Notes: a model not told the origin generated them from the sequence alone. Numbered from the stretch's first letter, positions 19,041 to 43,700 are shown. The stretch: 64,000 nt of DNA from Amoebophrya sp. A120 (GCA_905178155.1 CAJINV010000004.1:6364828-6428827), one strand, 5' to 3'. Program-made: numbers and translations.

Positions 19041-19685
19041 TTTTTCGGTTTGGGGAATCTACTCGCAAGCGAGTAGTAATAGCTTTTCTGTTCCTTTTAC
19101 ACTACTTTATCATACTCTACGCTGCAATTTGGGAGTCAGTGGGTATCTCTTTTTAGAGTATGTTGGAAACATAGAGCAAGGTTATAGAGGTAATATTTGT
19201 GCTCTTGCTAACGCGAAAATGGTAAACATAAAACTTCAACAAAACAACCAGATTCACACTGTGATTTGAAAAAAAAAATGAACGTGCTCACAATTCGTCC
19301 TCGTATTGGAACTTCCACTAGATTTTGCGAAGATCTTCAAGAAACTCGAGACAGTTCGAGTACTTTTTTCTTTCAGACCGTCTCTCCTGTTGAGGACATT
19401 GCGATCGTATTTTCGTGCGGCTTCATTTAGTTTTTCAAACACGTATTTGGATTTGCTTGTGCGTTCAAACGCTGATCCATGATTCCAAATTGACGTTGAT
19501 CTCAGTCATTTTCACATCATACGGAGCGCGCTCGGTGCGGAACAAACCGGAGCTATGACTAACAAACTTGGTGTCCTCCAGCTCTCGTGAATTTGTGCTG
19601 CTATAATTTTTGTCACTATATCCTTATTTCCTTTGGCTTCGATTCGATTTGCTCAACTCATTTCGATTTCGTATCATCATACATT

Positions 19686-19835
19686 TGTATCGTTACGTCA
19701 GAAGTAGTATATTGCCTGGAGCCCGCACGTCAAACTAGCCCCCAACTACAGCCGATATGCTCGTGAAGGATCGCGGGCGAAAATGTTGATCTTTTGCCGG
19801 ATCTTACGAGAGTCGAGAGCGCAGAGCTTTGCCAT
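19686..19835 (-). repeat. Split direct repeat B2 (3' terminus of the element)
   Basis: 19686-19820 is identical to 20246-20380 (135 bp); homology extends to tttgccat after a 7-nt insertion. Confidence 0.95.
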
Positions 19836-20009: not shown

Positions 20010-20245
20010 GAAAGGAAAAACAGATCGTTCTCCGTCCGCTAGGTCTGAGAATGAGGTGAATGGAGTGAGAGTGAAGTGATGGAATGAAGCGGATCACGTT
20101 TCGTTTAGCGTGGATGCGTGTCCATACCCCACGGAATGCAAACGAGCTGCCACGAGCGGCTTTACAGCCAATAACCTACTTCCGACTTCGCTCACACAAA
20201 TTGGATTCCAGACGTACTACTTCGTACTACTAAGGATCCATAATC
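20010..20245 (-). repeat. Split direct repeat A2
   Basis: 236 bp matching 33113-33348 with one mismatch seen (gtttAgcg vs gtttCgcg). Confidence 0.95.
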
Positions 20246-20388
20246 TGTATCGTTACGTCAGAAGTAGTATATTGCCTGGAGCCCGCACGTCAAACTAGCC
20301 CCCAACTACAGCCGATATGCTCGTGAAGGATCGCGGGCGAAAATGTTGATCTTTTGCCGGATCTTACGAGAGTCGAGAGCTTTGCCAT
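20246..20388 (-). repeat. Split direct repeat B1, directly abutting A2
   Basis: Copy of 19686-19835. The junction ...cataatc|tgtatcg... equals the two element termini joined together. Confidence 0.95.
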
Positions 20389-20494
20389 TTTACCACAATA
20401 GAACAGGCGGGGCGAGACGCGAGCGAGGCCGGCTATGAGAGCGCGAGCGTCTCGCAACGGGAACCAGGAATTTGTATGAAGTGTAAACTCATGC

Positions 20495-23400
20495 TCATCG
20501 GGTGACAGGTGGAAGATACAGGCTTACTTTGACACTCATTTTTTTGCATTTCGTTTTGAAATCATACACAGCACGACCGTAATCGAACTTGCACCCGCCC
20601 GCGGAGCCAGTGCCGATGTTCATCGGTATGGCGATTGTGCGGCACTTTGGTGTGAGTGACTTTTTGTTCTCTTCCTTGATGTAATTGTAGATGTTGTTCA
20701 TGTTGTGACGAAACAGGGATAGACGCGCTTCTTTCCCATCATCGGTTGCGTGGCCGTCCCAAATTGTCTTGAACGAATTTGGTTCAGCAGCCGGTGGGTT
20801 TCCCTTGCGAAACATTGTGTAAATGTTGCAAACACGTCCTGAAATCTCAAATGAACCGCATGGCTTGTCTTTGGCTGGTAAATGATATTTCGAAGCGGAA
20901 GGGAAGATAGCATACAAATCCTTTGCGATGCCCTTTGCTTGGGTGATCGGGGATGTGCATGCAATGTGCAAAAACAAATCTTCGTTGCCATGACCAAACT
21001 GACCTCTTGTGGCGCCGTGTAGAAGGTCTAGCTGAAACTTGAACTTCGCGCCCTCTTTCAGCTTCGTCACCTGCGGGCGCAGGTCCAACTTCGGGAATCT
21101 TTCCTGGGACCACATGCTGATCGGGACGGAAGAGTAGATGATGTAATCGTCGTCGGCGGTCAAGTCTTGCCCGTTGGGGAGTGCGAAGCACTGCGACCCG
21201 AACTGAAACTTGGACACCTGGTGCAGGGGTTGCAACAACTGAGCGAATTTGCCGCCGAGGCTCTGTACCACTACCGCGATTCTTGGTCTCGCGGTTTCCG
21301 GCGTCCCTCGTAGCAGCTTGTGGAGGTACTTGAGCGCTGGGAACAGCACCGTGGTGGGCGGGAGCCACCAACTGCGCTTTTCCACGAACTCGTCGTAGTT
21401 GACGAAGATTTGATCCGAGTGGTGAAACTTCTTTCCCAGTCTGGCGAAGTTGTCGGAGCTACTACTACAGAAAGCCTCTACTGATAATCCGGGCAGCCTG
21501 TTGGAGATGATGCCCCATGATCTTTTGTTGAAACGCTTTTCGGGGTTGTTGTCGTACAGGCTGCAAAGCTTGTCACGAAACCCCTCCTTGAGATCGTTGA
21601 AGTTTACTGCTTTTTTCTTGCAGAACCGCTGATCGCGCTGCTTTTTTTCGTCGGAACGCACATCGGGGCTGTCGCGTGAGTGTACGTCAGCGACTGTGTT
21701 TTCATCACCGTAGCACTTTGCCGCCACGAGTTCTATGCGCAGTTTGTCGATCATGTCGGCAATGTTGAGTGACGCAGCATGTAAATCCGGTGAGGCGCAG
21801 CTGCCTTTGTTGCACAGCCGCTTCGCGCACGGGTTGTCGGTGTAGTACAACACGAGTTTATCAGTGAAGTCGACATCACCGCACCCGCTGGCTTCGTGGA
21901 TGATGAAGAACGGCGCCAGTGATTCCAGGCCGTTGATGTCGCAGTCGCGAAACTGCTCGGGCCACGTGCCCTTGTACGCGATGCCGTTGACCGTCCCGCC
22001 CCAGCCCGCCGTGGTGGCGGCATCACCGTAGACGACCACGAGGATGTCAGGGTCGATCGACCTGATGAATACATCCCCGAACTCGAGTACTTCGGCGCGC
22101 CAAAGAAACGAAGCGTGGCCATTGTAGTAAACTTTCGCGTACGGTTTTCGGGCGAGAACGTCGCGCCACCACCGCACTTCCTCGAATGAAGCCCAGCTGA
22201 CTTCGATCCAGGGGTTGTGCTTCGGGTTGTTCTGCCACACCTTGTACACCCCACTGCTGTTAAGGTCGTACTGAATGGCGTGCAGTGGGCCGCGATTCAC
22301 TACGAAAGTGATGCTCTGCAGCTTGCCAGCGCATTTTGCGAGGTCTTTTGCCTTGCAGCGGTAGTTGGATTCGGGGGACTTGAGGTAGTCCATGAATTCG
22401 CACAAGTAATCGTGGTACTTCACCCGTCGTTCCTCTTCGACGTACAGCCGCATGGTGTCGGTGTGGAGTTCGAACCCCAGCCACGGCATGTGTCGGGTTG
22501 GTTTGATGAGTTTCCCCGCGACGACATGTAGATCGAAGCCAAGATTAGACAGGAAGTAGAACTGCCGGCTCAAATCGTCCTCAGCGGCTTGGAAGGACAA
22601 CGGGTCGGATGTGACTATGTTTCTTATGTCATCGACATAATCGAAACGCTTCGCCAGAATTCCCGACTGTACTCCCAGTTCCAAGGCGTGTTTGACCATA
22701 CTGCGGGGTGGAGTTTGTGAGGTGATTACAAAGATGACTTGCATGAATTTTGAAAGATGATGCGAGGTATGAATCGAGTTTGTCATGCTAACGAAAATCA
22801 AAACTGTACCGATCATTGATGCCCGGGGCAGGGCCTACGCCAAACGGAACATATAAGTGTGTTCCGATTTCGCCCGTCGTGTCGTCGCCTGTGTAGCAGC
22901 CCAACAGTCGTCGGCACGATGCGGCAATCATGTAGTGGCTGAAACAATCTTTCAGGTCGATTCCCGTGAGGTAGCAGTTGGGAGTGACGTGCTCGAGCAG
23001 CTGCCACCAGCCGCTGTAGTCCACTGGCTCGCTGTAAATGGACTGACTCACGCGCGAGACTTTGTTCGACCAGTCGGTGACTAACCGTGCTTTCGTGCCG
23101 CCCTTCTGCATGAGTACGGTGGACGGTGCCCGCGTGAGATCCGCTGGGTAGATGACTTGTTGTTTTTTGAAGTCCCAGACTAGATTCTTCTGGTCCTGCC
23201 GTAGCTCGTTGTAGTCGTACAACACCAGCTTATTCGCAGTTTTGAACCGATAGATTTCGTTCAAAAACTGTTCGCGGTTATCTTCCGCACCGGAGTAATT
23301 GTTTTGCTGCGTCGGTTGAAATTCCGTGTCGGTGAAAGTGAAAGACACGCCCGAGAACCACTCCCGGACCACATCTGGGCTTACACCCCAGCGGATAGCG

Positions 23401-23642
23401 TTGTAGATGTTGAATGTTAAACCATCAAGCGCATGCTGGTCTTCTTGTTCGCGCCACGGGTCGGTTGGGCCGGGCTGGGACTTGAGGAACCCTGGGAGGT
23501 CCTCCGGACATGTCGGGAGGCCTGCTGCAAGGTAATCTTCAAAGGTGTACCTTGGTGCGGGTGTCAAGCCTAACCTCTTCTCATGCGCTGTGTGCTCGAG
23601 GTGCGCCGGAAGCGCCCGCGTCAGGCATGAGCGGAATGGCAT
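20495..23642 (-). CDS. Pol: reverse transcriptase, RNase H, degenerate adenine-methyltransferase-like domain and Macro domain; 2 exons
   Basis: RT: ARLVTDWS, IDLKDCFSH, VPFGVGPAP, YVDD, WLG. RNase H: YGDAA..GWG, INGLE, YTDN, NTVADVHSR. MT-like: VEAFCS..SWWLPP..IAVVV. Macro: AKGIAKDLYAIFP..IAIPMNIGTGSAGG. GT-AG intron 22701-22809 joins INDR|MVKH. Confidence 0.92.
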
Positions 23643-23938
23643 TCTGAGATCTTTTTGCTGTGAGTTTCACAAATGAAGATGAGGGATTGGCGCGGTGGGT
23701 TTTGATGGGAGTACTCGTTGTTTTTTCCCGACCTACACTCGAAACGCTCGCTGAATTGAGGTCGCTCAGATGCGGCTGTTGAAAAGACGTCACTCAGAGA
23801 AAGCGCTCGGCCGTTGACGTGGCAACAACAGAGAGAACAGGTTAAACGACGACGACGCCGGTAACTACTGTCCTCCGAGCAGTGGCATGACCACGGTGAA
23901 TCGTTTTCATTTGAAAAAAGGATACGAAGAAATAATGT

Positions 23939-26900
23939 TCACTTGCGCACCGCAGATGGATTCAGTCCGAGTTTCTTTGCAACGCGAGGAAATGCGAAGA
24001 AATTGACTTCGCCCGTGTTCAACTGGTTTGCGAGTTTCGGTGCGTACTTCAGAATGTCGTTGCTAGTGAAGTATTCTTCTTGCAGACTGTTATGTAGCTG
24101 AGTAGGCTGCTTAATTTTCTCGCGAGCATCGCGGGGTAGCGCCCACACCCGCTCAAGCTGTTGTAGCGTGGTGATTGCTCTGGCGTGTTGTACTTCTTTT
24201 TCGACGAAGCTGTCCACGATTTTGTGGAGCTGCAACGGTTCGATGGGAGCATATCTCTGATCGAGCATGTCCGCATTTCTCCAGCCACCCTGGAGATATG
24301 CTATTTTCCCGATAGCATCATGCTGTCGATAGAAAGTGGCGCCGCCGTGACGCAGCGACACTGAACCTTCGAAATTAGCTTTCCGGTGATTCACGAAGGC
24401 GCTTTTCGTGTCCAGTCGCACGCGGTCCTTCCCAAGCCTCTCGCCGCGGGTCGGGATTCTGTTCAAGCCGATGGTCACGAAGAACGGATGACTTTCGGCG
24501 TACGCGGTCGATTTGTGATGCAGAATGAGCGCCGTACTGAATTTCGTCCACTTCTGTATGAGCGACGCCATGCTCTTCGGCACGACGCAAAAACTACCCC
24601 GACCGTACTTGTCGTTTTTTGCGAACCTGAACAAAATGATAGTGGTATTGTGAATTTCAGTGCGCAGTACGATGAGGATGCGTTATGAATTTTTGCATGA
24701 TAAATGACAAAGTTGCACCTGATGTGGAAGGTTGGTATCCCGTCTTTCATAGAGAAGTCGTTCCGGTTGAACTGGCGGAGTTCGTCGTTTCTTCTCACGC
24801 CGAAATAACCGACGCAAATGATGACGGCTACTTGCAACTTGATCGCCGCTGCAAGAAAGTTGCGTTTGTCAAAATGCTGATGACAGATCCACTTGGGGTT
24901 GTCCCAATTGTCGACTTCCCCCGCGAATGCAGCGTCGAACTCCTTCTGCAGGTTTCTGATGATTACTGAAATCTCGAAGAAATCCGGGATCACCTTCTTT
25001 GCTGCGACAGCGTGATAAGCGTTCAGCTTCAATCCCCGCCATGCGCGATAGAAAAATTTTGATTTGTCAGAACAACTGTACGACGACAAGTGCGGGCGGC
25101 TACTGTTGAAAATGTTTATCGCTGCGGATAACGTGAGGCACGCGCCCCATCGCACTTTGCCGTCCGTTTCTTTGATGGCCGGGCTGTTTTCTTCTTTCTT
25201 CATGATTTTGGTGAAAGCGCAGAAGAAGGTGATGCACTCCATCTCGTTCTGCACCGGCCACAACACGCGACCAACGAAGTCGCAAATTAGTGGTACGTAG
25301 CGGCTCAGCGCCTGCTGATATGATTTCGCGGTTGACGCTGCGATTGACGAGTTGTTCACCATGACCAACTCTTCTGCTAGCTCATCGCGCACCTTGTTGT
25401 CCACTGGTAGCGAGTCGAAGAAGTCGGAGGCAGCGGGAAATAGTACCAAATCTAGGGATGATGAATCACCTGAGTATTTGTCCCATTTGTCTGCCTTTCG
25501 GTGAAGTTTAATTTGGTTGGCGGTCGACAGGGATGAATTCCCGAGAATTTCCTGCACCGTTTTTTGAATGTCGTCTGTGTCGGAGTTCTCCGCGGACGAA
25601 TGAAATTCCGATCCGACGGCACTGTCAGAAGTGAAGCCGTCGTCGCTTCCATCGCTGTGGTCGCTGAGAGCGATGACACCACGACTGACGTACTCGTCCA
25701 CGTCGACGAGATCGTCGCCATCATCGTGAGCCTCCTCGTCATGCGCTGCGTCGCGGCGGTAGTGCATGATTTCAATTTGCGAGCGGACCGCTTGCCTTTC
25801 TTCGAGTTGCTTCTTGTTCAGCTCGACGAGAGCGGAGTCAAGAGCGGCCTCCAGAATCTCGTCGTCGGACGTTCGTGCAAACGAAGATGAAGAGGACTGC
25901 GCGCCTGCTTCGCGCTTGGACTTCTTTGCGGCTGGTGAGGCAGCAGCGGCTTTCTTCCTAGCATCTGCTTTGCCCTTCAGGTAGGCTTCCCTCGCGACCG
26001 CCTCGACGTCTACGAACGGTTGTTGTTGCTTTGGCTCCTCTGCCGCACTGCTTTGGTTCAAGAAATCGAACATGTCACTCTGAACCGGCTGCTTCGCGGT
26101 TTGTGAAGCGACAGCAGCGGCCAGCTTTGCGTCTGAGCGCTGCGCCGCTGGTAGATCCTGACGGAGTCGATCCTTCAACTCCGGCCTGCGGAAGAACATG
26201 CTAGGATCGAACATCTCTCTTCGATCGTTTTGATGATGGTTCGGACTGCTCGCTGTTAGTTTCGCGAATTCGTCGCTGTTCAGCCAGGTTGCATACAGCC
26301 CGGTGGACCACTTGTAGCTGATCGGCCTGAGAGAGGGTGGGGAGTCCGTTGCACTGGTTGTTTCCCCCGGTGGTGCCCAGTACGATGGTGGCGGGATTGC
26401 CGAGGACGGGGTCTCTTGGTCCCAGCAGCTGTGGCGCAGCACCAGCAGTGCTGCTGCTAGCTGAGCTTGACGAAGCACCCGCACTTTGTCTTGCGCTGCG
26501 TGAAGATGATGAAGCAGCTGACGATGACGCAGAATTTAATGATGATGAGTTTGTGATTATGAGGTCGTGTGTGAAGTGTAGTTGATTCACTTCCTGCAAC
26601 GAATTCGCAGTCGATTCCACGAGTGCGATGTTGGCGGCCTGTCGCAGCGGGGCTGCAGCTTCCGCTGCCGCGTGCGCACGCCGCTGCTCTTCTTCCGCCC
26701 GCTGTAACACGCGAGCTTCGAAGGCCTCTGCGTCGCGGCGAATCCGATCGAGATCTGGCCCTACAACGACACTGGGCGAAAAGCTGGAAGTTGTTTTTGC
26801 GAGCTGGATACTTTCTGCTCGCGCTCGGTGTTGTAGTCGCGATTATTCCTGACGAGGTACTCGCGATAAACACCGTTGCGGAGATACCACCTCTCGACTC

Positions 26901-27248
26901 TGAGTGTGCCCCGGAGTGCGTTGAGCTTGGCGATGCTCCGCACTTCGTATCGCGATGTCGAAGGAGTTTCACCCGTGCCGCCGCTGGCGTCGTACGTGCC
27001 GGCTACCAAGGATTTGGCTACTTGGAAGCTGCCGCAGCTGACTAATTTTTGTTGTCCGGGCAGCACTCTGTCCACACTGTGACGCCGCGCTCAGCGGCAG
27101 ACGAGCCGGTGTCTGGCTGTATTGTGACACTAGCAACGGTGGCTTCTCTGCATGGGGTATAATTGAAAACAGCCTTCACGAAATCGTAAGTTTTGCTTGA
27201 TAGCTTATGCTTTCTTTCGCTCAAGAATTGCTCCACATTCTCGCTCAT
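23939..27248 (-). CDS. Tyrosine recombinase with a long N-terminal extension, multi-exon
   Basis: Motifs STAKSYQ, GYFGVRRNDEL (R), HIR|FAKND (K), VSLRHGGAT (R) and GGWRNADMLDQRY (W, Y). GT-AG intron 24627-24718. Exons upstream of 26484 (ORFs 26201, 26761, 27042) are unresolved, so the start is tentative. Confidence 0.85.
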
Positions 27249-27796
27249 TTTGCATTTTGCTATGGCAAGAATAGGAGCGGAAACACGACGACCAGTGCGT
27301 ACGAGACACGTTTGTACGAATGAAAAAGAAACATGACAACGAATGAAAATGAAAACATGAAGACGGCAGAACATCCGGATGAAATGACGGCACGACGCGT
27401 TCAAGAAACTGACAAAAGTTTCAAGGCGCGAAGGTACTAAAGTGATGCTTTCCGAGGCGTTTTAAAATGGGACGCACTGTGCATTTCTTTCTTCAAAGAC
27501 AGTGTTAAAGTAAATTGCTATTTTTGTCGACTAAGAAACTGCTCATGCATTTCATCGTCGACCGTGCGACGTGAAATCGAGACGCAGCTTGCAGCTGCGA
27601 AACACGTGTTCACTCAAATCTGTGATGCTGTACAGCTGGGTAAAATGAAGGCGAGGCTTGTTATTGAGCTGTTGTAAATTTTTTCTGTAATCTCTGATAA
27701 TAATCCCTTGACTTTAGTGCAAGTTTTTTGATTCAGATGATGAAGCCAAATGAAGCTTATTGTCTGAAAATGTCATAAGATTTCGTGTAAATTTGT

Positions 27797-30284
27797 TTAC
27801 GTGCGGGGCCGCTTGTTGGTGCGGTAGTTTGAGTCTTTGAACTCACACTGCTCGCGCCAGTGGTATTGTCCTGAACGACCACGCTCCTTACAAATTTCAC
27901 ACTCCACAACACGTTCATTCTTCGCGGCGATACAGTGACTGTAACCACTTTGATGCGTAGCGTATCCTCTGCCAGCTAAAAAACAGCTCTTACACTTGTT
28001 CGCTCCCCCCGCAAGCCATTTGCTGGTCGCTTTTTCGTCTTTGTTGTAGCACTGCTGCAGCGCTGCTTGCGCAGCCTGGGCATCTTGTTTTAAGATTGCC
28101 GTGGTGAGGATCGAATCGATTTCCTTGTTCGTGTGGCGGTCCACACCGACGTACGACGGAGCCTGTGCGGCGCCACCTTGGTGGCCACCCTTTCCGCCCT
28201 GGTGCGTGTTCGCGATGCCGCCACCGCCGCCTCCACCCTTGTTCTTGCTACCTGAGGGCGGTTGCAATGACAAGACTTTGCGGCGCAAGGCGAGATGTAT
28301 CAGAATGAAGAGCGTGTTTTGCATGACAAACATGACGGCGCGTTTCGCCTGAAAATATGAATTTGTGACGCAAGCAAGAATGAAAGTGATTCGAAGGTGG
28401 TTGATAGTGATACCCTTGTTGGTCTTTTCGCCATGCGAAGACGCGCCGCCGCTGCCGGAATTGGCGGTCTTGTTGGGTTTGTCGTTCTTGTTTTCGTGGA
28501 ACACCATGGATTTTAACTGCCTGGCTGTGGCGATATTGCTCGCCGCGCACATGAGATAGCGCGGGGCAAACTCTAAATTCCAGAGCGCACGCTTGGCCGG
28601 AGTTATGGTGCCCCTGAATTTCACCTCCTTACAAAAACTCCTGTATTGTGAGGCGAAATGAATTTGAGTGAAGAACTTTTATGCGAAATGAAATGAAATG
28701 AGAATCATGAGTACGCATTACAAATTGCATAACTTATCAACCAGAAAACTACCTGATTGTCGAGTAGCAGGCGAAGCTGATGTTTGCCGGTAAGGTGATC
28801 ATGGTGGTCTTCCCGTGGAGTTTTTCGGATTTGGGTGCAGCCATATTATGGCACTCTAATAAGTACTCAATGGCAAATTTAAATTTTGCCGCGAGCAAAC
28901 TGCACGCTTCGTCCTCCCCGTAGCACAAAATGACTTTGTCCAGGTAGTCCTTGCAGGTCTGCAGCGAGCCACCGTTGGTCGGCAAAATCAGACTCTACAA
29001 CAATTTTTGCATGAAGATTTTCATGTTGAATTCCCGATGAAATTTGACATGCACCTCGAAAAAATTGATAGCAGACATCCTGACGATTACCGAAATGGAG
29101 GTAAGCAAATGCTGTACCTTCCATTTGTAATGGGTATTCGCTTTCCGTTGCAAGTCCGAGATCGCGATGCGGGTCGACGCGGACACCGTACCCGACGCTT
29201 CGACCTGCGCCGCCGCGAGCACCGTCTGTGGGTCCATCCGGGTGGTGTGATCGGTGTTTTCAAAATTCGGCCGCTTCAAAACCTGAAACAAGGGTTGAAA
29301 ACGACGAATGGATAAATGAGGTGAGTTTGTGATGTGTGTGAACATGCATCAGTGATGAAAGTGAAAATGAAGGGCACAGCTTTACCTTCAATCCCGCCAC
29401 TAGTTCTTTGGGGTCGAGCGCGGACAGTTTGGCGCACCACTTCACTTCGGACACGATCAACGGGATCACGCTTGCATCACCGCTGCTTTCCGCCAAATTC
29501 TTTTTGACTACCCCCGCGAGGTCCTGGGCGTCCTGAACGTTACACACCGCGCAAATGTTCTGGGTCTCGTCGAGGCTGTGGTGAAGTTTTACACGTGTTT
29601 GAAACTTGTGATGCGTATTTCCGTGGTGCAAAAATGAAAAGCACTGTCATGGTGTGGGGTGAAAATGACATGATTTTAATCGGAGTACATGTTGAATTTT
29701 GACATCCAGGACGAAAAGGCTCCCACTCCGCTTTTCTTCACGCAGTCGTAGCAGGCCGCCGCGGTGCACCCTTGGCGCCGCAGGCAGCAGAACTGAATGC
29801 CCTTCTCCGGTTTTTCGGTCCGGCAAAAAGCGCATGGGTAGTCGGCCAACCGCGTGTTGGCTGCGGCGGGACCCCCTACTGCGGCTGCCATCTTGTCTAC
29901 TTCCGGGTAATCGATACCAAGCAGATCGAAGAACTCTTTACAAATGCGTTGGTGATTGTGCAGCTCTAAAACGAAATGGATGTGGTGTAAGATGATTTCG
30001 AGTTTGTCTTCCAGATAGTGCAACAACCAAATACTGATGTGGTCACGCGAGAACTGGCCGATCGGATTGATCAGCAGGTCGATGAATGGATTGCGGTCCG
30101 AGTGCTGGTGGAAGAAAGCAAGCGACTCAGGCGTGATATAGCGACTGTGGTACGGATTATTGGTTTCTTGAACATCAGTGCTCACCCACACAATTTCTTC
30201 TACTTCTTCTTCTCCAATGCTGTTTATTGTAGAATCCGTATCGCTAACCACAGTGACATCAAAGTTTTTCTTAACCCAAGACAT
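27797..30284 (-). CDS. Gag-like protein, ~624 aa: N-terminal RING/PHD-like Cys cluster and two C-terminal CxxC..H..C fingers; 6 exons
   Basis: GT-AG introns 29576-29688, 29283-29385, 28995-29117, 28641-28752 and 28252-28413 give one 1875-nt ORF. Cys motifs CAFC..CC..C..CYDC..CAVC, CKSC-x8-H-x6-C and CEIC-x9-H-x4-C. Confidence 0.75.
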
Positions 30285-30444
30285 GTTGAAGCACAACTTC
30301 AGATAATTGGTCGCTGTTAGAATCGAATTTTTTTCGTACTGAAATGATTGCTTTTTCCTTTTCAAAACTGCTCCTTCGAATTGAAATGAGTACGGAGCTG
30401 AAGTGTTCTAATGGTGAATGGAGAGTGACAACCGTCTAGCAGTT

Positions 30445-31136
30445 TCAGTTCAACGCCACGCGTGGCGCAGTCGCGATCACTGCTTGCGTCTGCGGCATTC
30501 CGTCGATTGTGTGGCCGATCAAGGTGGTCCACCCTGTCGGCAGTCCCAGACCGATGGCCGTGACATCGGTCATGCTCCGCACGAAGAACTTGAAACTCGC
30601 GCACGGGGGCATGAGGATCACGTTGAACTCCATCAACATGTGCCGCATCCGCAAATTCGCCGGGGCTCCTTGCAGCGTGTGTTGGATGAACCCATCCAAC
30701 TGCTCGCTCATGAGATTGAACGCTTCGATGCGGATGTGCGGCTCCACGCGGGAGCGCACGAACTGCTCGCAGACGTCCCCGATATTCACCAACGTGGCCG
30801 CTCCGAACACTAAAGCGCTGCACACCTGGCGTGAGTTGGTGTTTGGTACATGCTTGAAGTGTTGAGCTGTGTGAATATTTGACCATGCATGAATCTTTTT
30901 TGAAAATGATAAGAAAACGAGACCTTGAAATCCATCTGATTGGTAATTCCCGACAAAGTTTTGATTTTTTGCAGCAGCAGCAACTCGCTCGAAGTGCACT
31001 TCGTATCATACTCCAAAACTGCATAGCGCAAACCCGCGGGTAACTCGGGCATGATGACCTCGTTTTCCTTCGGGCAGCGCGGGCAGCGTGCGGGGGCCGT
31101 TGTAACGCCACGCACAGCCACCGAGTTTTCAGTCAT
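30445..31136 (-). CDS. Retroelement accessory gene (hypothetical, N-terminal CxxC), probably 2 exons
   Basis: Exon MTENSV..CPRC plus exon VCSALVFG..RVALN after a cag acceptor; donor site unresolved. Confidence 0.45.
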
Positions 31137-31138
31137 TT

Positions 31139-31513
31139 TTACTTGTGTTCGCCTTCGAAAATTTTCTTGTGATCTTTGCACGAAGACGCGGAAGCTGAGC
31201 TAGAAGAAGAAGAGGGTGCCTGCTTGTCGCGCAATTTTTTGATCTTGTTCAACTCTTTGACATGATTCAACCAGCAGGGCAGTGTGCTCACACACTCCTT
31301 CCTCGGGTACGCGGACAAAAAGCAGTTCTTGCACGGAGTCTCGTGCTTTTTGAAGAACTCTTCGCGCGCTTTTTTCTTCTCCAGCGTGTCTTTGTCGGAC
31401 GCATTGATAGCATTAAGAAGGAGAGAAGCTCTGTTGTCGACATCGGAAATGTGACACAGGCGGCCCAGCATGTTGGCCATTTCTTTATCAACTTTCTCGC
31501 TTTGTTGTGACAT
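31139..31513 (-). CDS. Retroelement accessory gene, 124 aa, putative Zn-binding (CKNC..C..C..H)
   Basis: ATG-initiated ORF with PCKNCFLSAYPRKECVSTLPCWLNH, which resembles the Gag-like CKSCFLAG finger. Confidence 0.55.
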   Translation of the reverse strand: MSQQSEKVDKEMANMLGRLCHISDVDNRASLLLNAINASDKDTLEKKKAREEFFKKHETPCKNCFLSAYPRKECVSTLPCWLNHVKELNKIKKLRDKQAPSSSSSSASASSCKDHKKIFEGEHK

Positions 31514-31690
31514 TTTGATCTGAAACTGCAGGTGAAAGTGAGTAGGTAGTCTAAAGAATTGCTAAGCTGATAGGCGAGCAATAAATTTAGAACGCATAAT
31601 GATAGTGAAGTGAAAACCATGAAAGAAATGATAATTGTAGATTGAAGATCATGAGCACTTTGGCGCTAGCGAATGAAAGCACCCGACGCC

Positions 31691-32519
31691 TTAGTAGAAC
31701 AATTTTTCTTGTTCGGTGGTGTTCCGCGTGGTGACAGCTGTCACACCATCTTCGGTGATTTCTTCCGTCACGGTGTTGCGGTCACGCGAGAAAATTTTCT
31801 TCATGGTACGCGTGCGACCATCCGCCGACTTTTCGCCCGAGCACCTCACCAAGGACTGCTGGACCTTTTGAAGTGAATGTTTTTTAATCGCATGAAAATT
31901 CTTCTAGCGCAGTGGTGTCATGTTCGATCCACGGGTTCGTGTGCAACACAATTCCCAACAGACGACACTGATTATACACCTTGCGTTCGTACACTTCTCC
32001 GATGACTTTCGCCGTGTCTGCGATGACCTTCGCCGGCTGTAACAGCTTCGTGAACAGCTCGACGATCGAGCGCAGCTGCACGAAAATCTTTTTTGTGTTG
32101 CTCATTCCCCCTTGGGCGCGCCTGTTGCTCTCCGCTCCCTGCATGAGCGCGTAAAAAGCGAACCCGGTGAGCAGGGCCTCGCACCAGGTCAACTGGAACG
32201 TGAAGCGAAAGATGCAGGGGAAGGTGAAGATCCTGCGATTAATTTTTGAGATGAATCTGTGTGAAGTGACAATGAATGAAAACATGATCACTGTGAATGA
32301 CATGAAGTGAAGTCTGAAAGTATGATACCGATACGCCGAGGACGCGTAGAAAACGCAGATTCCCACATAGTGTTCGCGTTCCACGAAAACGCGCTTCACC
32401 CATCCAGAGAGCACCAGAATGGTGGCTAGCCCCACGAGAAATGGGGTGAGGATTTCGTCCTGCAGCATGAACAAGATCAACTTGTCCGCTGGGGCAAGGT
32501 CCGGCGTCGGTGGTGACAT
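31691..32519 (-). CDS. Retroelement accessory gene: small multi-pass membrane protein, 3 exons
   Basis: GT-AG introns 32233-32334 and 31865-31979 give a clean ORF. Hydrophobic segments ILTPFLVGLATILVLSGWV, YVGICVFYASSAIFTFPCIF and WCEALLTGFAFYALM. Confidence 0.6.
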
Positions 32520-32558
32520 TTTGATGTGAGACAATGAAATGAGAACAGGAAGTCGAAG

Positions 32559-32861
32559 CTAATTTTTCTTTTGCTTCTTCGGCGCGGGCTCGGTCTCCAC
32601 CTCGTCTTTTGGAATAGCCAGCTGTTGATGTTCGTCGCTGAAAATCAGAAAGCCGCTCGGCATGGGTCTAACTTTCTTTCCCAGAACTGTTATGTCATTG
32701 CTGTGCGTTCCAAAATACAAAGGATAAGCGGAGACAAACGGCTCAGTGGTGCCGTCCCATTTCGTTAGAGTGAAATGCGTTTGGCCCGGGCCAAATTGAA
32801 AATATACCGCCCGCAAGTCAGCAGGCATTTTGTTAGTTGACGAAGCTACAGGTGAATTCAT
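32559..32861 (-). CDS. Retroelement accessory gene, 100 aa, with C-terminal NLS-like PAPKKQKK
   Basis: ATG-initiated ORF of normal complexity; first gene after repeat A1. Confidence 0.55.
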   Translation of the reverse strand: MNSPVASSTNKMPADLRAVYFQFGPGQTHFTLTKWDGTTEPFVSAYPLYFGTHSNDITVLGKKVRPMPSGFLIFSDEHQQLAIPKDEVETEPAPKKQKKN

Positions 32862-33112
32862 TGAGGTTGAATTCGTAAGCTTGATCGCAGCATGTAACCG
32901 TACTCAAAGATCAGATTCCAGGTTCTTGAGTGCTCCTGATTGACGCTGCTCCCACTCTCTGTCTCAGTACTCCAGAACAACAACGAAAAACTGTTTCTAT
33001 CCATCCTGATCAGCGGTCAGCGTTCTAAACAGCATCTTTTTATCTGTGTTCAAGTTCAAGCGTTCACGATTACGAAAATGAGATGTTGAGTGACATCGGT
33101 ACAGACGAGCAA

Positions 33113-33348
33113 GAAAGGAAAAACAGATCGTTCTCCGTCCGCTAGGTCTGAGAATGAGGTGAATGGAGTGAGAGTGAAGTGATGGAATGAAGCGGATCAC
33201 GTTTCGTTTCGCGTGGATGCGTGTCCATACCCCACGGAATGCAAACGAGCTGCCACGAGCGGCTTTACAGCCAATAACCTACTTCCGACTTCGCTCACAC
33301 AAATTGGATTCCAGACGTACTACTTCGTACTACTAAGGATCCATAATC
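33113..33348 (-). repeat. Split direct repeat A1 (5' terminus of the element)
   Basis: Near-identical to 20010-20245. Confidence 0.95.
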
Positions 33349-33478
33349 GCATCGGGCCGAAATCGAGCCAACTGCGAAGAAAATAAACATCATCAGGTCG
33401 ACATCACAGCGACACAAAGTAGAAGCAATCCATTTTTCTACCTTCAGAACGCAACATGGCAACGAAGGTACATCCCCT

Positions 33479-34885
33479 TTAAGGCATCGCCAACGCTGAG
33501 CTAGTGCGGAATGTTACTAGGCACTGATACGTGTTCCAAAACAGCCCGACTCCGGCGTCCCAAGTGGCGCGAAAATGCGGGGAAAACAGACGCTGAATGA
33601 GCGTGAAGTTTAAAAAATCCGAGATCGGCCAGACCCACCAGCTGGTAAGGTAGATCTCCCAAAAATTCTCCCGAAAACGGAACTGGGACAGCCAAAAAAC
33701 TGTGCGAACCGCCTCTGCGAAAGAAATCTGGTGTCCTTGTGCTGCAAGGTGTGAATCAACAGAAGCATCGACTGCGGTCTTGTGAATTGTACTCCGACTG
33801 CTCTTACCGCCTTCGAGGTTCTGCGCTGCGGCAAGCGCTGCACAAACAGAAACAGTGACTACAACCTCCTCTCCGGCTGAGGCCCTCGAGCGTACTAGCG
33901 CAGCCTCGTCGTCGTCACCTTCTGCTAAAGATCTGGACGTCGTTTCGCCCGACATCGATGGCCTTGCGCGACAGACTGGGGTCGCGGCACCAAACAGTTT
34001 CGCCAAGTCAGCCTCTAGCCGTGAAAGCTCGCGGGCGTTCATGAAGGTGGCTACTTGCGGTTGCAGTTGCAGACCCACATGATCGTACGGGTCGTCGTCC
34101 ACTGGGGCGCCGCGCGGAATGTGGCCACTGGTTCTCTTGCCATCAACATCCTCCTCGCCGTCCTCTTGGTCCACACCTCGTTCTTCAACCCCAAAGCCAG
34201 AAGTTGCATGAACTTTCTGTAAACACGCCGGCGTTCTTGCCGCGGGCGTGACAGCGTTTCGCAGTGCCGCGCGTCCAGCCGAGCTTGTGGGAAAAAGCGC
34301 GAGGTATTTGGGCCACAAAAACCTCTCCCAGATCACCTCCCAGGTGAGGTGCGCGGTCGTGCTACAGGTCACGAACAGCCAAATGCTCAAAGGAGTCCAC
34401 GCGAGCTGCATAAACAAAACCTTCTTTCCCAGAACACGAAAGTCCACGGATTTTGCACTTGATCTTACACGACGGCTGCTGGTGCTGCTCCCGGCCGCCG
34501 CGTCCGTCGCTGAAGTAGATGCCGCAGGCGGTGCCGTGACGTGTTTATTTGTGTTCATCCCATGTAGAAGTTGTTCTTGAGGCGTATTGCGTGCAACAGC
34601 CGTCGCGCCCATCGTGCGACGGTCTTGCAGGCCACTTGTGACGTCGAATAGGCGATCGGCTAGTCGGTAGGCCTGCACGAGACATCCCGTGCAAACAGGC
34701 GCGGCGCTCATCACGCCAAGGGTGCGGCACGGGTTCCAAGGCTTGTCGTGCATGAACAGGTGCTCGAGACGGTTGGCCGCGACGTCCGTAACACCGTATA
34801 ACCCCACACCCAAGAGCAGCGGCGCACCATTTGGGTGGTTCTCGTAGAAAGACGCGACGCGCGCACGAAAAGCAGACAGCCGCAT
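33479..34885 (-). CDS. Mpv17/PMP22 family membrane protein
   Basis: Motifs GLYGVTDVAAN, WNPCRT, KKVLFMQLAWTP, FWEIYLTSWWVWPISDFLNF and VGLFWNTY. Confidence 0.85.
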   Translation of the reverse strand: MRLSAFRARVASFYENHPNGAPLLLGVGLYGVTDVAANRLEHLFMHDKPWNPCRTLGVMSAAPVCTGCLVQAYRLADRLFDVTSGLQDRRTMGATAVARNTPQEQLLHGMNTNKHVTAPPAASTSATDAAAGSSTSSRRVRSSAKSVDFRVLGKKVLFMQLAWTPLSIWLFVTCSTTAHLTWEVIWERFLWPKYLALFPTSSAGRAALRNAVTPAARTPACLQKVHATSGFGVEERGVDQEDGEEDVDGKRTSGHIPRGAPVDDDPYDHVGLQLQPQVATFMNARELSRLEADLAKLFGAATPVCRARPSMSGETTSRSLAEGDDDEAALVRSRASAGEEVVVTVSVCAALAAAQNLEGGKSSRSTIHKTAVDASVDSHLAAQGHQISFAEAVRTVFWLSQFRFRENFWEIYLTSWWVWPISDFLNFTLIQRLFSPHFRATWDAGVGLFWNTYQCLVTFRTSSALAMP

Positions 34886-37487: not shown

Positions 37488-38658
37488 CTACGCACTGCCC
37501 TCCGGCCTCACACGCCCGTTCCTCTCCTCGCCCGTCTTCTCCTCCGCCTTCGTCTCGGTCTCCCCGTCCGTCTTCACCTCGGTAGAAGCGGGTGTCGTGG
37601 TGGTCGTGATTGTCGCGTCTTCATCCGCAACCGTATGCATTCCAAATATGTCTGGGTCTGGAAAGATGCAAGGTTTGTCATGTTTGGCTAACACGACTCT
37701 TTAGTCTGTTATGCGCGTGACCCAAGCCCCCTCACTTTTCTCTCATGCGGAAGCTCACTTTATCATGCATAATAGACAAGACTGTAGCAACCCCAAAGCT
37801 TGTCATGCTTGGCAGTAAAGTGAGGTTTTCTCGTCTTTCTCAACCAGCATCACAAGTTTCCAGACCCAGACATTTTTGCATTTGATAATCCGCCGTGGTC
37901 GTGGTTGTCGTGACAGTGGAGTTTGTCGTTTCCTCCGGGACCTCAAAGCTGTGCGGGTCGCAAGCGCCGCAAGAAATTCCGGCCGAGTATGAAGGGAAAA
38001 AAACAATAAACGCACCAGCAGCTTTGTCGTGGTGCTTGTTCATCGTCGTTTTGGTTTTCATCGTTTATGATTCTGGTGTAATTACAAGCTGTGGAATTCA
38101 TGCAGATAAGTCCCGGAAGCTGTTGCTGTATGAGCTGCCTACACATGTCACTTGAATGCATGGTGAAAAAATGCATTGCCCATGCTTGTGAAACCGCGAA
38201 CGACCACGGACTAGGCGCTATGCCGAAGTGGAAAGTATGTATCTCATACACCGAACTGGTTGGCCATCGCTTTTTGGAACCCGTTGCGCGAGTCTGTGTG
38301 CTCCGGGGCAGCTGAAGAGGATGGTGGGCAATAAGTAGAACATGGTTAGAGGAGATTCAGATTATAGAGGTGTTTTCTATGAATAAAGCATCAAGGTTGT
38401 TAACTTCATTATTTTTCATGTGTGAAGATTCCAAAAAAAAACTTCTATACCGTCGTAGCTGAACCACTTGTTGTCTTCAGAGCTTTTCAAGTTTTCGCCG
38501 GATGCCTTTGCCATGTCTTCCTCAAACGCCGCCTTCTCCGAGCGCCAGTCGTCGTCGTCCTTCACCTTCTTGCTGTTACGCAGGTGCTTCGCCTCGTCAA
38601 TCACGACCTGCGTGACAAAGACAGCCAAGCACAAGGATCTACTCGAGCAGGAACGCAT
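37488..38658 (-). CDS. Hypothetical, probably secreted protein with a Thr-rich C-terminus; internal exons unresolved
   Basis: First exon has a hydrophobic N-terminus. The last two exons join across an introner (TTTADY|TVADEDAT). Confidence 0.45.
37637..37884. mobile_element. Introner family A (248 bp)
   Basis: IR caaatatgtctgggtctggaaa / tttccagacccagacatttttg, flanked tAT...ATa. Excision restores the frame. Confidence 0.88.
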
Positions 38659-39543: not shown

Positions 39544-40507
39544 TCAGGCCTTCACAAACTCATACACCCCGTTCTCCTCGTCAATGTCCAGGTCGCAGTC
39601 GAACGCCTTGCACATTTCGAACAGCAATTGCCGCGAGCCTTTCTTCTCCACGTCGTCCGTGAACACGGAGTAAGCCTTATCCCGTGTAAAACCGTCCCCA
39701 ACCCAGAGTTATTGGATGCCTAAAATGTTTCTCATGCGCAAACCCATGAGGAGCGTTTTCTAGTCGTGTTTTGAGATTTGTCATGCTCGAATCAGCATGA
39801 TAAGCCCGAGCTGTGATGCTGCTTCACTAGCTAAAGTTACGACTGCATTAAATGCTGAAATTTGTCATGCGCAGCACCCAAAGCTTTTTGATTTGTCTAG
39901 CAGATTTCCCACATTGACTCTGGGGAAGTGGGCACGTTTTTACTCAGCATACGTCTCCCCTTCCACAAGCGAGGCCAGGTTCATTTCCAGGTCCAGTTTC
40001 CAATCCTCGCGGATTTGCTTGTCAGGGTCAAGTATCAACGGTAAATATCCCTGGATGTCTGGCAGACTGTAAACTTGTCATGCAGGTTTTCCATGACCCC
40101 TGAGTTCTGGAATGCGGGGACTAGCATGCCAGACTCTGCTTGGTCTCTATCATGCCTATCCTGCATGAGAAACTCCCTCCCAACGTGGTCGAAAGTGGAC
40201 ACCAGCTTTTGGCACTCATGCAACACAGATTTTTGCATGATTCGAATTTAGCATGACAAGTTGCGATCTTCCAGACCCAGACATATTTGCAATCCATATC
40301 GAGCGACTTGCTGTCGAAATTCGCCTTCGCATCGTACGCGAAGTCGTATTCCTCCTCCCGATCTGTATTCGTACTGCCTGCTGCAGCTGCTCCGAGGGGC
40401 GGATTTGTTTGCTGTGGGAGGAGGAATTGCTGGGTGGAGGTGGTCATCTGTCGCTGATTTACATGACTTTCAGGTTGTACTATATGTCCAGAAGTCGCCC
40501 CGCCCAC
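39544..40507 (-). CDS. Hypothetical protein, 3 exons
   Basis: Exons ..YDFAYDAKANFDSKSLD / LPDIQGYLPLILDPDK..GETY / KAYSVFTDD..YEFVKA*, separated by two introners. Confidence 0.55.
39681..39948. mobile_element. Introner family C
   Basis: Imperfect IR gtaaaaccgtccccaacccagagttattg / cattgactctggggaagtgggcacgtttttac, flanked tAT...ATa. Excision gives GETY|KAYS. Confidence 0.75.
40049..40295. mobile_element. Introner family A with one decayed IR
   Basis: Interior is closely similar to 18489-18744. Right IR intact, left IR degenerate. Confidence 0.8.
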
Positions 40508-40704: not shown

Positions 40705-43700
40705 TCAAAATTCAGTACGTGCTGCCGTCTCCCTCTTATTCAAAAACGCACTTGTGCCGGTCAACACCAGCTCCTGAATCGCGGTGGCGCACTCTAACCG
40801 CGCCTCCTCCGTCCCCCCCGAGATTTCGCAGGTCTGCTGCTTCTCGCGCAGCTTGATCTCGGTCACTTGGAAGTGCTGCTTCAACTGCTTCATCATTTTG
40901 CCCTGCTTGCCAATAATCACCGCATGCTTGTCCTTCGGACAATCGATCTTCAACTTGTTATTTGTTGTGCTATTACTTGTCGTCGCTTGCTGCTGACCCA
41001 GGACATGATCGACGCTATGATCTCCGAAAAGCTGTGCCGGCAACTGACTGTTCCTAGAGGGTAATGTTGTCGTAGTGCCACCTGCCGCGGGGGCCACTGC
41101 GGACGAGGACGGTCTGCTATTTGTTCTACCGTTGTGAAGTAGAGAAGAGGATTTTGATGCGCGGCTACTGTTTTCCTGCTGCATCGCAATCCTCTGCTGT
41201 TGTAGCACTTCCTGCCGACGCCGCTCCTCCTCCTCCTGCTGCTGCCGCAAGATCTCCGCGCTTTCAATTCGGTGTCTTTCATGATCTTCTCGTTCTCTTT
41301 GTCTTTCACGATCTTCTCTCCTTCGCCTTTCCTCCTCCTCCCTCTCTAGTTGCTCCTGCTCTCTCCGCAATTTTTCCTGGCGTTCCACTTCCTGGAGCTC
41401 TTCCCGCAACTTCCTTTCTACCTCTGACTGCCGCTCTTTCCTCTCGGCGCTTTCCCGCCGCTTCTGCAGTATTTCCGCTTCCCGCATTTTACGTTCCTCC
41501 TCGTCGGCGAGCGCGTTGTCAATCACCTGCTCGATGTACATCTGACACTGTTGCCGGTCCTTCAGGCAATTCCCGCCGATTACGGTGATCACGCCGCTCT
41601 CGTCCACTTTCAAATCCTCTAAATGAAAATCCTCCACAATCTGCCGGGCCGTGGCGCCCCCGCGCCCGAGCACGGTGTTGCGCAGCGAGGGCGGAATTTC
41701 AAACTGCAGAATCTCCACGTTCTGGTGTTGCTGCTGGTTCATCATGGAATTGTTGAAAAATGTTGACATGTTTCTGCTTTTTGAGGAGCTGCTGTTCTTG
41801 TGCTTGTTCAGAAGATGGACACTTGCAGCTCCTGGCTGATTCTCGTCCACCTCCATGTCCACATTTCTAGTTCCCTGCTGCTCGTTATAATTTTCATCAA
41901 CTACCACTGCCTGCCCTAAAGAAGCTCTACCACCGCCGGGGGGCAACAAGCCCCCGCCTTTAATCATACTCGCAGTCGGCGATCGCACAGTTGTGCCACG
42001 GAGTAGAGACTCCTGCAAGGACTGCTGCTTTTGCAAGTAGTCCCGGTGACCGCCGATGGTTTGGATCCGGGCATTCGGCACGTCGTCCTGGTCATGAAAG
42101 TGTTGGTGTTGCCCTCCTTGCAGATGTTGCTGTTGGTCCCCACCACCGCCTCTCTCGTTCACGCTGTCCACGTTCGCCGAGCGACAGGCGTCTAAAATCA
42201 CCAATTTCGCCGTCTCCACCATCTCCTCGCTTCTTCCCAAAATTTCCACATTGATGACCTCCGCATTCTGGTCCATGAAATTCAGCGTGATCAAATCAAA
42301 CTCCTGCTCCAGTTTCCGCAAGTTGCTACCCCCAGGGCCGATCACGCGCCCCTTGCACTCCGCGGGAATCTTGAACCGAATCAGTTTCGGCACGTGGTCA
42401 GCTAAAGTGCCGGCGGGAGGGGCCTGGTCGGTTATCGCAATCGACATCTCGTCTAACAAGTGCAGCCGGGCGGCCTTCGCTTGAAACAACGCGGCGGACA
42501 AACAGTTGATGTCCACACCTGTGGTAAGGAATTTTTTCAGTTTGGATCGTATATCGATGTATGGCTCGTATGGCTACAAATCAATGTAGTTGAAAATGAA
42601 AATCATGATCGAAGCGATTCAAGAAAGAACTCCATGAAAACAAGAAACCTTCACTTAAATCACCGCGACAACTACAGCAAATGCAAGTCATAATCTTCCG
42701 CATCAAAATATAATACTTCAGTATCTGTACCAGAGTTCTTTGCGTCCAGTTGCACCGCGGAGATTCCGGTTCTGCTCCCGGCGACTTTCAGATCCATCAG
42801 TCCGAGATACTTTTCCAAGTCCGTCACGTCTGTTAGAATGATCTGCGCTTCCTCCCCGACAAAATACGCCGGAAGCGGAAATTCCGGATTAAACAGACTC
42901 GGGGATAAGGAGCTGGAGTTGTAGTTCGCTCTGTCCATCTCTACTAACTTCGCAAAATCAATCTTCCCGGCGTCCAGGAGCCCGAGCTTCACGGAGGCGA
43001 TCGGGGTCTTGACCGGGACGCCCGCGTCCGCCAGGGCGAGCGAACCGCCGCAGACAGACGCCATGCTCGTCCCCCCGCAGTTCTCCGTGATAAACGACTC
43101 CACCCGGATGGTGTAGGGGAATTCTTCTTCGTCTGGAAGAGAAGGCTTCAGGGCCCGCTCCGCGAAGTTCCCGTGCCCGATCTCCCGCTTCTGGTTTTTT
43201 TGTTTTGTTTCCCGGGTTGTGGTACTGTTCAACATCCGTTTCGCCGCGTCGGAAGAGGAGATCATTGCCGGGTAAGAGCACTGCATGTAGAACCGCCGGG
43301 CTGTTGATGATGAGCTACTAGAAGAAGAAGAAGAAGAGCCACCAAATTGCTGCTGCGCTGTTGCATTCGGATTTGCGTTGTTCACGCCCCCGCCGTCTTG
43401 CAAAGGTCCGTTTTCAATTCTTAGCATGCCACTGCTGTCCGCTAGAGTCGTCGTGGCGAACGTCTGCGTATCGCCGTTCGTGAAGACCGCGCTGCCGTGC
43501 GGGCCGGGTAGATATTTTAAATCCATGGAAACCTCCCGCACCTCGTGGATCTGCCGTCCGCAAATCCGCTTCCGCGTCAGTTTCACGTAGGCCGCCATCG
43601 CCTCGCCGCAAACCAACTCAAACGCCTTTTGGATCAGGGATTCCGGAAACGCGTGCAGCCACGCCGGACGGATGTGGAGCTTGAAGAGTTCGTCGAGTAA

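What the first reader, a model, noticed from the sequence alone, without database searches (positions are those of the whole stretch)
30445..32861. Four orphan accessory genes at the 5' end of the retroelement, including a multi-pass membrane protein
Seen: co-oriented small genes encoding a 100-aa protein with an NLS-like tail, a ~3-TM protein (31691-32519), a 124-aa Cys/His protein whose CKNCFL motif echoes the Gag finger CKSCFL, and a CxxC protein. Inference: a membrane protein is unexpected in a DIRS-order element and could support membrane-associated assembly, egress or cell-to-cell transfer.
Basis: inference. Interest (0 to 1): 0.7.

Follow-up and report, generated by a model that had tools for sequence, protein, structure and literature searches.

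The report
Large retrotransposon with four extra genes
A 13.7-kb, single-copy jumping gene in what is likely a parasitic dinoflagellate holds four extra gene-like reading frames with no relatives found, one predicted to sit in a membrane; they likely help the element copy itself inside its own cell, and nothing tested here shows that it moves between cells.

Summary
The four ORFs are there and lie inside a 13.67-kb element bounded by split direct repeats (A1…B1-A2-B2; A copies 235/236 identical). By recalled motifs, the element is an intact Gag–tyrosine recombinase–RT/RNase H retrotransposon of the DIRS order, about twice the usual size, single-copy, with at least ten predicted GT-AG introns. 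ORF2–4 have the codon signal of the core genes, and all four starts share an AAAATG context found at 9 of 170 ATGs.

Corrections: ORF1 is probably 89 aa; ORF2 (205 aa) and ORF4 (197 aa) need splicing. ORF2 has one clear and two marginal membrane segments, and the best second segment in the unspliced frame is intron. The ORF3–Gag echo is not significant (p about 0.11). 'Orphan' means little, because RT and recombinase also hit nothing. RNA contigs give one unspliced trace and no splice joints. FAST/sORF2 hallmarks are mostly absent, so cell-to-cell transfer is unsupported.

Verdict: a new, gene-rich variant of a known class; function inferred only. The scan earlier noted intron-rich and 16-kb DIRS-order elements on other DNA, not this sequence.

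The parts
33113..33348 (-). Split direct repeat A1, 5' end of the element
   Evidence: 236 nt, 1 mismatch to A2; depth 77.2 vs 40.3 for the body in DNA run X1
32559..32828 (-). ORF1, 89 aa (100 aa from the upstream ATG at 32861); basic NLS-like tail; weakest coding signal
   Evidence: no hits; model pLDDT 42
31691..32519 (-). ORF2, predicted 205 aa, 3 exons (32519-32329, 32232-31980, 31864-31691); one clear TM at aa 23-41, marginal segments 52-72 and 74-94, amphipathic helix about aa 117-147
   Evidence: no hits; Pfam best E=0.01, below cut-off
31139..31513 (-). ORF3, 124 aa, single exon, basic, C-x2-C-x9-C-x5-C-x3-H cluster
   Evidence: phrog_27283 (unknown function) E=0.00024 over aa 71-114, which runs into the Ser tract
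30445..31136 (-). ORF4, predicted 197 aa, 2 exons (31136-30924, 30825-30445); CPRC at aa 18; ATG two bases after the ORF3 stop
   Evidence: no usable hits for exon 2; model pLDDT 35
27797..30284 (-). Gag-like gene, about 600-630 aa: first exon from 30284 (exact donor uncertain), then exons ending 29386, 29282-29118, 28994-28753, 28640-28414, 28251-27797; Cys-rich N-terminal part, two C-terminal Cys/His fingers
   Evidence: stop-free after four GT-AG introns; the frame is closed upstream by a stop and has no ATG, so it needs the 30284 exon; 'Gag' is by position and fingers, inferred
26215..27248 (-). Further coding-like exons between Gag and the recombinase frame, starting at an AAAATG; either an N-terminal extension of the recombinase or a fifth extra gene; unresolved
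23939..26214 (-). Tyrosine-recombinase-like gene (26214-24719/24626-23939, 727 aa or more)
   Evidence: stop-free after a 92-nt intron; recalled R-K-H-W-Y motif chain in 0 of 20000 shuffles; no database hit
20495..23642 (-). RT-RNase H-like gene (23642-22810/22700-20495, 1012 aa) with a C-terminal extension of about 390 aa
   Evidence: stop-free after a 109-nt intron; recalled RT+RNase H motif chain at aa 228-619 in 0 of 20000 shuffles; no database hit
20243..20380 (-). Repeat B1, abutting A2
20010..20245 (-). Repeat A2
19683..19820 (-). Repeat B2, 3' end of the element, after a spacer of about 190 nt
   Evidence: 137 of 138 identical to B1

Best explanation
The four ORFs lie inside a recently inserted, single-copy, split-direct-repeat element that is likely an intact tyrosine-recombinase retrotransposon, and they are likely its own accessory genes, predicted to serve replication within the cell. 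Shown: their position inside the repeats, codon signal and start context. Inferred: proteins are made from spliced RNAs, while an unspliced A1-to-B2 RNA is the reverse-transcription template (otherwise the introns would be lost); small basic or metal-binding ORF1, ORF3 and ORF4 would act in the nucleus to protect, export or de-repress that RNA; ORF2 would anchor the particle or RNP to the ER or nuclear envelope by one N-terminal helix and an amphipathic helix. I put about 0.8 on 'real element-borne genes' and about 0.3 on this specific division of labour.
For: A1/A2 235 of 236 and B1/B2 137 of 138 identical, a 3-nt GAT/AAT core at the junctions, no target duplication. One 12.8-kb DNA contig at flank depth. 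Gag, YR and RT become stop-free with six GT-AG introns. The three accessory introns have the same form (96-115 nt, G 0.10-0.22) as these and as an RNA-supported host intron (139 nt, G 0.11); their donors rank 2, 6, 8 of 149 GT and acceptors 10, 12, 23 of 161 AG. Synonymous codon score of ORF1-4 pooled +0.007 vs core -0.003 to +0.029 and negative in 14 of 16 host frames; ORF2 +0.074. GC skew is positive from 18 to 33 kb, including the accessory block, and mostly negative elsewhere. AAAATG at all four starts: about 4e-6 by hand, about 5e-4 after allowing for two ORF1 starts and for picking the motif afterwards. No flanking TIRs or LTRs that would mark a nested insertion. TM1 KD 2.09, amphipathic moment 0.59.
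Against: No function is shown for any of the four. No relative was found to test conservation (no related locus). No splice joint is seen inside the element; of three RNA-like contig sets (one sample label, one study), only one unspliced 226-nt contig of depth 2.4 falls in 30445-32861, while the neighbouring host gene is covered at depth 3-16. ORF1's codon use is host-like or unconstrained (-0.112) and its frame signal weak. The RT, RNase H and YR labels rest on recalled motifs written after I had seen the sequence; Pfam, NCBIfam, PHROGs, PDB and my bacterial profiles all missed them. The splice-site model was trained on six sites only.
Confidence: 0.45

Rival explanations
1. The block is captured cargo (host or viral genes picked up once by recombination) that rides in the element with no role in transposition.
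For: Four unrelated proteins (no pair similar); ORF1 has host-like codon use; single copy, so a family-wide presence is not shown; most proteins of such hosts lack functional assignment (PMC7789003, passages).
Against: Tight packing with uniform start context and 2-177-nt spacers; ORF2 is more element-like than the core; none of the inverted-repeat introns that interrupt nearby host genes; predicted introns are present, which argues against capture of spliced mRNA; no spliced-leader relic.
Confidence: 0.2
2. ORF2 is a fusogen-, viroporin- or Env-like protein that lets particles leave the cell or pass between parasite cells or between parasite and host.
For: Layout parallels MDG1-group LTR elements, with a nuclear sORF1 and a membrane sORF2 upstream of gag (PMC11952523, passages); TM1 follows a 22-aa N-terminal segment; amphipathic helix in the tail.
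Against: No N-terminal MG motif; net +1 in the 15 residues after TM1, so no polybasic patch; 205 aa against 63-107 for sORF2-like and 80-200 for FAST proteins; no large ectodomain. One copy per genome gives no sign of infectious spread.
Confidence: 0.12
3. The soluble ORFs are counter-silencing factors (chromatin or small-RNA) and ORF2 is incidental or host-directed.
For: DIRS-order elements of dinoflagellates and other lineages repeatedly gain methyltransferase and chromatin modules (PMC5890265; 10.64898/2026.05.21.726589; passages); NLS-like and Cys/His motifs.
Against: No match to any such domain; the element looks nearly silent in the RNA sets.
Confidence: 0.15
4. Some or all ORFs are chance frames in a long 5' untranslated region.
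For: No homologs, low language-model recognition (1684 and 1845), poor models, almost no RNA.
Against: Frame-specific codon signal and GC3 0.62-0.76 for ORF2-4, start context and ORF excess; the same blanks occur for RT and YR.
Confidence: 0.08

Closest known systems
VIPER-like and TATE tyrosine-recombinase retrotransposons of kinetoplastids (PMC6681497; passages and section 13)
   Same: A1…B1-A2-B2 split direct repeats; Gag-like, YR and RT/RH genes; the Gag-YR-RT order (listed in that order in the paper's tables and legend, otherwise recalled); YR barely detectable by profiles.
   Different: Three ORFs only, no 5' accessory block, no mention of introns in the text; no phylogenetic link tested here.
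SymbioDIRS of Symbiodiniaceae dinoflagellates (PMC5890265; passages)
   Same: Dinoflagellate DIRS-like elements with shuffled YR/Pol order, extra Pol domains and an RT that aligns poorly to Pfam.
   Different: Annotated as intronless, carry Dnmt3; no upstream small ORFs or membrane protein in the passages read.
Ngaro and PAT-like elements (PMC8547959, PMC3783388, PMC3266345; passages)
   Same: Same repeat layout; three core genes.
   Different: About 6-7 kb in Cafeteria (DIRS1-like 4-6.3 kb) with YR as the last ORF; this element is 13.7 kb with YR before RT and four extra genes.
MDG1-group LTR retrotransposons with sORF1/sORF2, and reoviral FAST proteins (PMC11952523; passages)
   Same: Small nuclear protein plus membrane protein upstream of gag.
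   Different: Different order of retroelement; ORF2 is longer, lacks myristoylation motif and polybasic patch, and may have more than one TM.
Ogre LTR elements and Terminons (PMC6431247; passages)
   Same: Large retroelements with extra ORFs of unknown function, in Terminons some with TM domains.
   Different: Integrase-based or Penelope-like, not tyrosine-recombinase elements.

Membership tests
DIRS order, split-direct-repeat type (PAT/Ngaro/VIPER-like) | A1-ORFs-B1-A2-B2 repeats | tested here: met
   a spacer of about 190 nt separates A2 and B2
DIRS order, split-direct-repeat type (PAT/Ngaro/VIPER-like) | RT and RNase H domains | tested here: inconclusive
   Recalled motif chain incl. YVDD present, 0 of 20000 shuffles, but patterns were written after seeing the protein; no profile hit
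DIRS order, split-direct-repeat type (PAT/Ngaro/VIPER-like) | Tyrosine recombinase with catalytic R, K, H, H/W, Y | tested here: inconclusive
   Recalled chain present, 0 of 20000 shuffles; the second Arg of HxxR is not standard; XerC-based profile E=5.9
DIRS order, split-direct-repeat type (PAT/Ngaro/VIPER-like) | Gag-like ORF with Cys/His fingers upstream | tested here: inconclusive
   Stop-free spliced frame with two fingers; no profile hit
DIRS order, split-direct-repeat type (PAT/Ngaro/VIPER-like) | No target-site duplication, short shared core at junctions (recalled feature) | tested here: met
   GAT at the 5' and internal junctions, AAT at the 3' end; empty site not available
DIRS1-like superfamily (narrow sense) | Inverted terminal repeats and internal complementary region | tested here: not met
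   Ends are direct repeats
VIPER-like vs PAT-like vs Ngaro-like | Placement in an RT/RH tree | not testable with these tools
   No eukaryotic reference sequences could be fetched
FAST/sORF2-like fusogens | N-terminal myristoylation motif MGxxxS/T | tested here: not met
   ORF2 begins MSPP; some true members also lack it
FAST/sORF2-like fusogens | Polybasic patch right after the TM | tested here: not met
   Net +1 in aa 42-56
FAST/sORF2-like fusogens | Single TM after a short ectodomain | tested here: inconclusive
   One clear TM at aa 23-41, two marginal segments
FAST/sORF2-like fusogens | Amphipathic helix in the tail | tested here: met
   Hydrophobic moment 0.59 at aa 117-134
FAST/sORF2-like fusogens | Plasma-membrane location and fusion activity | not testable with these tools
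   Needs experiment
Gag nucleocapsid-derived paralogue (ORF3) | Significant similarity to the element's Gag | tested here: inconclusive
   Same C-x2-C-x9 spacing, but score 39 is reached by 2241 of 20000 shuffles and no signal remains with the hexamer masked

The most novel reading that the evidence does not exclude
A virus-like DIRS-order element: a 'complex' tyrosine-recombinase retrotransposon that, like complex retroviruses, uses spliced accessory genes, including a Rev-like nuclear factor and a membrane protein that lets its particles cross a membrane (nuclear envelope, or the parasite-host boundary), giving a route for horizontal spread in a marine intracellular parasite.
Probability: 0.12. 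Interest if true: 0.85.

Novelty: new variant of a known kind. Interest (0 to 1): 0.5.

Why it matters
DIRS-order elements are described as three-gene, roughly 4-7 kb units whose particle biology and spread are poorly known. An intact 13.7-kb copy with many introns and four or five extra genes would show that this order can become as complex as large LTR elements, and it gives defined candidates for two open questions: how a retroelement keeps introns through reverse transcription, and whether any tyrosine-recombinase element uses membranes. Its value is capped for now by one copy, no homologs and no expression proof.

Tried and rejected

Homolog searches with no result: ORF2, ORF4 exon 2, ORF1, RT (19); exact look-up found only the host Mpv17-family protein, 1 of 6 queries. 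Pfam, PHROGs, NCBIfam: nothing above cut-off for the element. Related loci with RT pieces: none in viral (18) or metagenome contigs. PDB and phage tblastn: nothing. Profiles from 67 RNase HI sequences, 2 XerC-like proteins and YmdB did not detect the element's domains above decoys.

Single-sequence AlphaFold2 of ORF4 exon 2 and ORF1 gave pLDDT 35 and 42; no fold search was run on them. No complex was predicted. No run on record as RNA holds the element; raw-read runs X5-X7 gave 0 reads even on host genes, so are no test. The bacterial promoter scan was at chance level and is not suited to this host.

Rejected: ORF3 as a proven Gag duplicate; three firm TM helices; the 30284 ORF as a fifth accessory gene (needed as Gag exon 1); a nested transposon; a spliced-leader relic.

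Literature: eight searches listed no paper whose title or abstract start describes a DIRS-order element with a membrane protein or this element. Goodwin & Poulter 2004, Poulter & Butler 2015, Repbase and all supplements were not seen and may hold such cases.

Full report
SETTING. The finding lies in a mobile element on the minus strand. A 236-nt repeat at 33348-33113 recurs at 20245-20010 with one mismatch, and a 138-nt repeat at 20380-20243 recurs at 19820-19683 with one mismatch. The order is A1-genes-B1-A2-spacer-B2, 13.67 kb in all. This is the layout described for Ngaro, PAT-like and VIPER-like tyrosine-recombinase retrotransposons (PMC8547959, passages; PMC6681497, passages and section 13). 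The 5' and internal junctions share GAT, the 3' end has AAT, and there is no target duplication. In DNA run X1 the body is one 12,801-nt contig at depth 40.3 (flank 46.8, repeat A 77.2), with no other long contig at 85% identity or more: one copy. The host is likely an Amoebophrya-type parasitic dinoflagellate (inference): nearly all long frames of the window are on one strand, and 3 of 4 RNA-supported host introns examined are non-canonical, 259-279 nt long, two of them (37.6 and 39.7 kb) at highly repeated inverted-repeat elements, as described for that genus (PMC7789003, passages).

CORE GENES. With six GT-AG introns of 92-162 nt, three stop-free frames appear: a Gag-like protein with two Cys/His fingers, a 727-aa recombinase-like protein and a 1012-aa RT-RNase H-like protein. 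The Gag frame has no start of its own and needs the 30284 ORF as first exon. Ordered RT/RNase H and recombinase motif chains occur in 0 of 20000 shuffles each; these patterns are recalled and were written after seeing the proteins. No library confirmed them. Symbiodinium DIRS RTs are likewise reported to align poorly to Pfam and to show shuffled YR/Pol order (PMC5890265, passages). Two things follow: the class label is likely but rests on repeats plus motifs, and a blank search for the accessory genes says little.

THE FOUR ORFS. They sit between A1 and Gag. ORF1 is 89 aa from the AAAATG at 32828 (100 aa from 32861). Their three introns look like the core introns and like an RNA-supported canonical host intron in length, low G and ends; donors rank 2, 6 and 8 of 149 and acceptors 10, 12 and 23 of 161 under a model from six sites. 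An alternative in-frame acceptor at 32257 scores best of all and would add 8 aa to ORF2. A 3-periodic model trained on the core genes prefers the annotated frame for all ORF2 exons, ORF3 and ORF4 exon 2 (z 2.5-4.4), weakly for ORF1 and ORF4 exon 1 (z 1.0-1.3); two of the three introns read in frame and one spacer also reached z near 2, so frame contrast and GC3 (0.62-0.76 for ORF2-4) carry the argument. Synonymous codon use of the pooled block is +0.007, beside core -0.003 to +0.029 and 14 of 16 host frames below zero; ORF2 is +0.074 and ORF1 -0.112. Of 170 ATGs on the element's coding strand 9 follow AAA, and four of these are the four starts; ORF2 and ORF3 share 20 of 23 bases around the start. 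No inverted or direct repeats frame the block. I conclude that ORF2-4 are real genes that have long been in the element, and ORF1 probably.

MEMBRANE CLAIM. Spliced ORF2 has one clear segment (aa 23-41, KD 2.09) and two marginal ones (KD 1.23 and 1.04). ORF4 has equally marginal segments, and so does the host Mpv17-family protein, a multi-pass family (recalled), so the count is one to three. In the unspliced frame the best second segment (GES 1.81) is encoded by intron 1. An amphipathic helix follows at about aa 117-147. Against the FAST/sORF2 features in PMC11952523 (passages), ORF2 has a short N-terminal segment and an amphipathic tail but no myristoylation motif, no polybasic patch and greater length.

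GAG ECHO. The hexamer alone is rare in shuffles (29 of 200000) but was chosen after the fact. A fair whole-protein test gives 2241 of 20000, and nothing remains with the hexamer masked. The C-x2-C-x9 spacing is shared, so a remote origin from a Gag finger is possible, not shown.

EXPRESSION. Runs X3, X8 and X9 (one sample label, one study; RNA is a guess on record, but X8 and X9 show spliced host joints) match the window with few or no differences. Inside the element X3 has 4 contigs of 151-210 nt at depth 2.2-4.3, none in the finding; X8 has one unspliced 226-nt contig at 31574-31799 (depth 2.4) and a trace near 26.2-26.9 kb; X9 has none in the finding; no joint is listed in the element (the lists were cut, but depth bins over ORF1, ORF2 exon 1 and ORF4 are zero in X8 and X9). 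The flanking host gene is covered at depth 3-16. The block is therefore at or below detection; contigs cannot prove silence. X5-X7 were no test.

MECHANISM. Shown: position, repeats, codon and start signals. Inferred: the element must keep an unspliced full-length RNA as template while making proteins from spliced RNAs. That creates a need for factors that handle intron-containing RNA and move it across the nuclear envelope. I assign this to the small basic or metal-binding ORF1, ORF3 and ORF4, with ORF2 as an ER or nuclear-envelope anchor. Several starts have an AG acceptor just upstream (31526/31520 rank 2 and 5 of 161), compatible with alternative or trans-splicing; ORF4 could be reached by stop-restart. 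None of this is tested. Rivals are cargo (0.2), counter-silencing (0.15), fusogen or egress (0.12) and chance frames (0.08).

COMPARISON AND NOVELTY. DIRS1-like elements are 4-6.3 kb (PMC3266345, passages) and Cafeteria Ngaro 6-7 kb; known extras are methyltransferase or hydrolase domains (passages). Extra ORFs, some with membrane segments, are known in other retroelement orders (PMC6431247; PMC11952523). PMC9940879 (passages) added nothing on this point. Eight searches listed no report of this element or of a membrane protein in the order; key reviews, Repbase and supplements were not seen. Earlier scan notes describe an intron-rich and a 16-kb DIRS-order element on other DNA (unchecked) and nothing like this sequence.

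VERDICT. Observation partly confirmed, interpretation partly supported. New variant of a known kind; interest 0.5.

Noticed in passing
window 20495-21100 (-): The last 200 aa of the RT protein resemble a macro (ADP-ribose) domain by recalled motifs, preceded by a degenerate adenine-methyltransferase-like stretch; no database or YmdB match.
   Followed up: partly
window 19683-33348 (-): At least ten predicted GT-AG introns in a retroelement that looks intact and recent, and none of the inverted-repeat introns common in the flanking host genes.
   Followed up: partly
window 26215-27248 (-): About 1 kb of further coding-like exons before the recombinase frame, with its own AAAATG and a stretch loosely like a chromodomain (recalled); exon structure unresolved.
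   Followed up: partly
window about 19600-20084 (-): Run X3 has a 488-nt contig at depth 29.4 that starts within repeat A and continues into the A2-B2 spacer, with no matching contig from A1 into ORF1; the 3' repeat module may be transcribed while the 5' one is not.
   Followed up: no
window 33349-34885 (-): The element is inserted 130 nt downstream of the stop of an Mpv17/PMP22-family gene (Pfam E=4e-10), whose RNA contig runs up to A1.
   Followed up: partly
window 12573-12841, 14471-14739, 18480-18749, 37629-37887, 40075-40300, 47179-47441, 56624-56928: A family of about 260-280-nt inverted-repeat elements; the copy at 37629-37887 is spliced out of RNA with non-canonical ends and a short direct repeat.
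   Followed up: partly
window 42672-45927 and 40705-42447 (-): Host frames that read like a polynucleotide-phosphorylase/RNase PH gene and a KH-domain gene (recalled resemblance, not searched).
   Followed up: no
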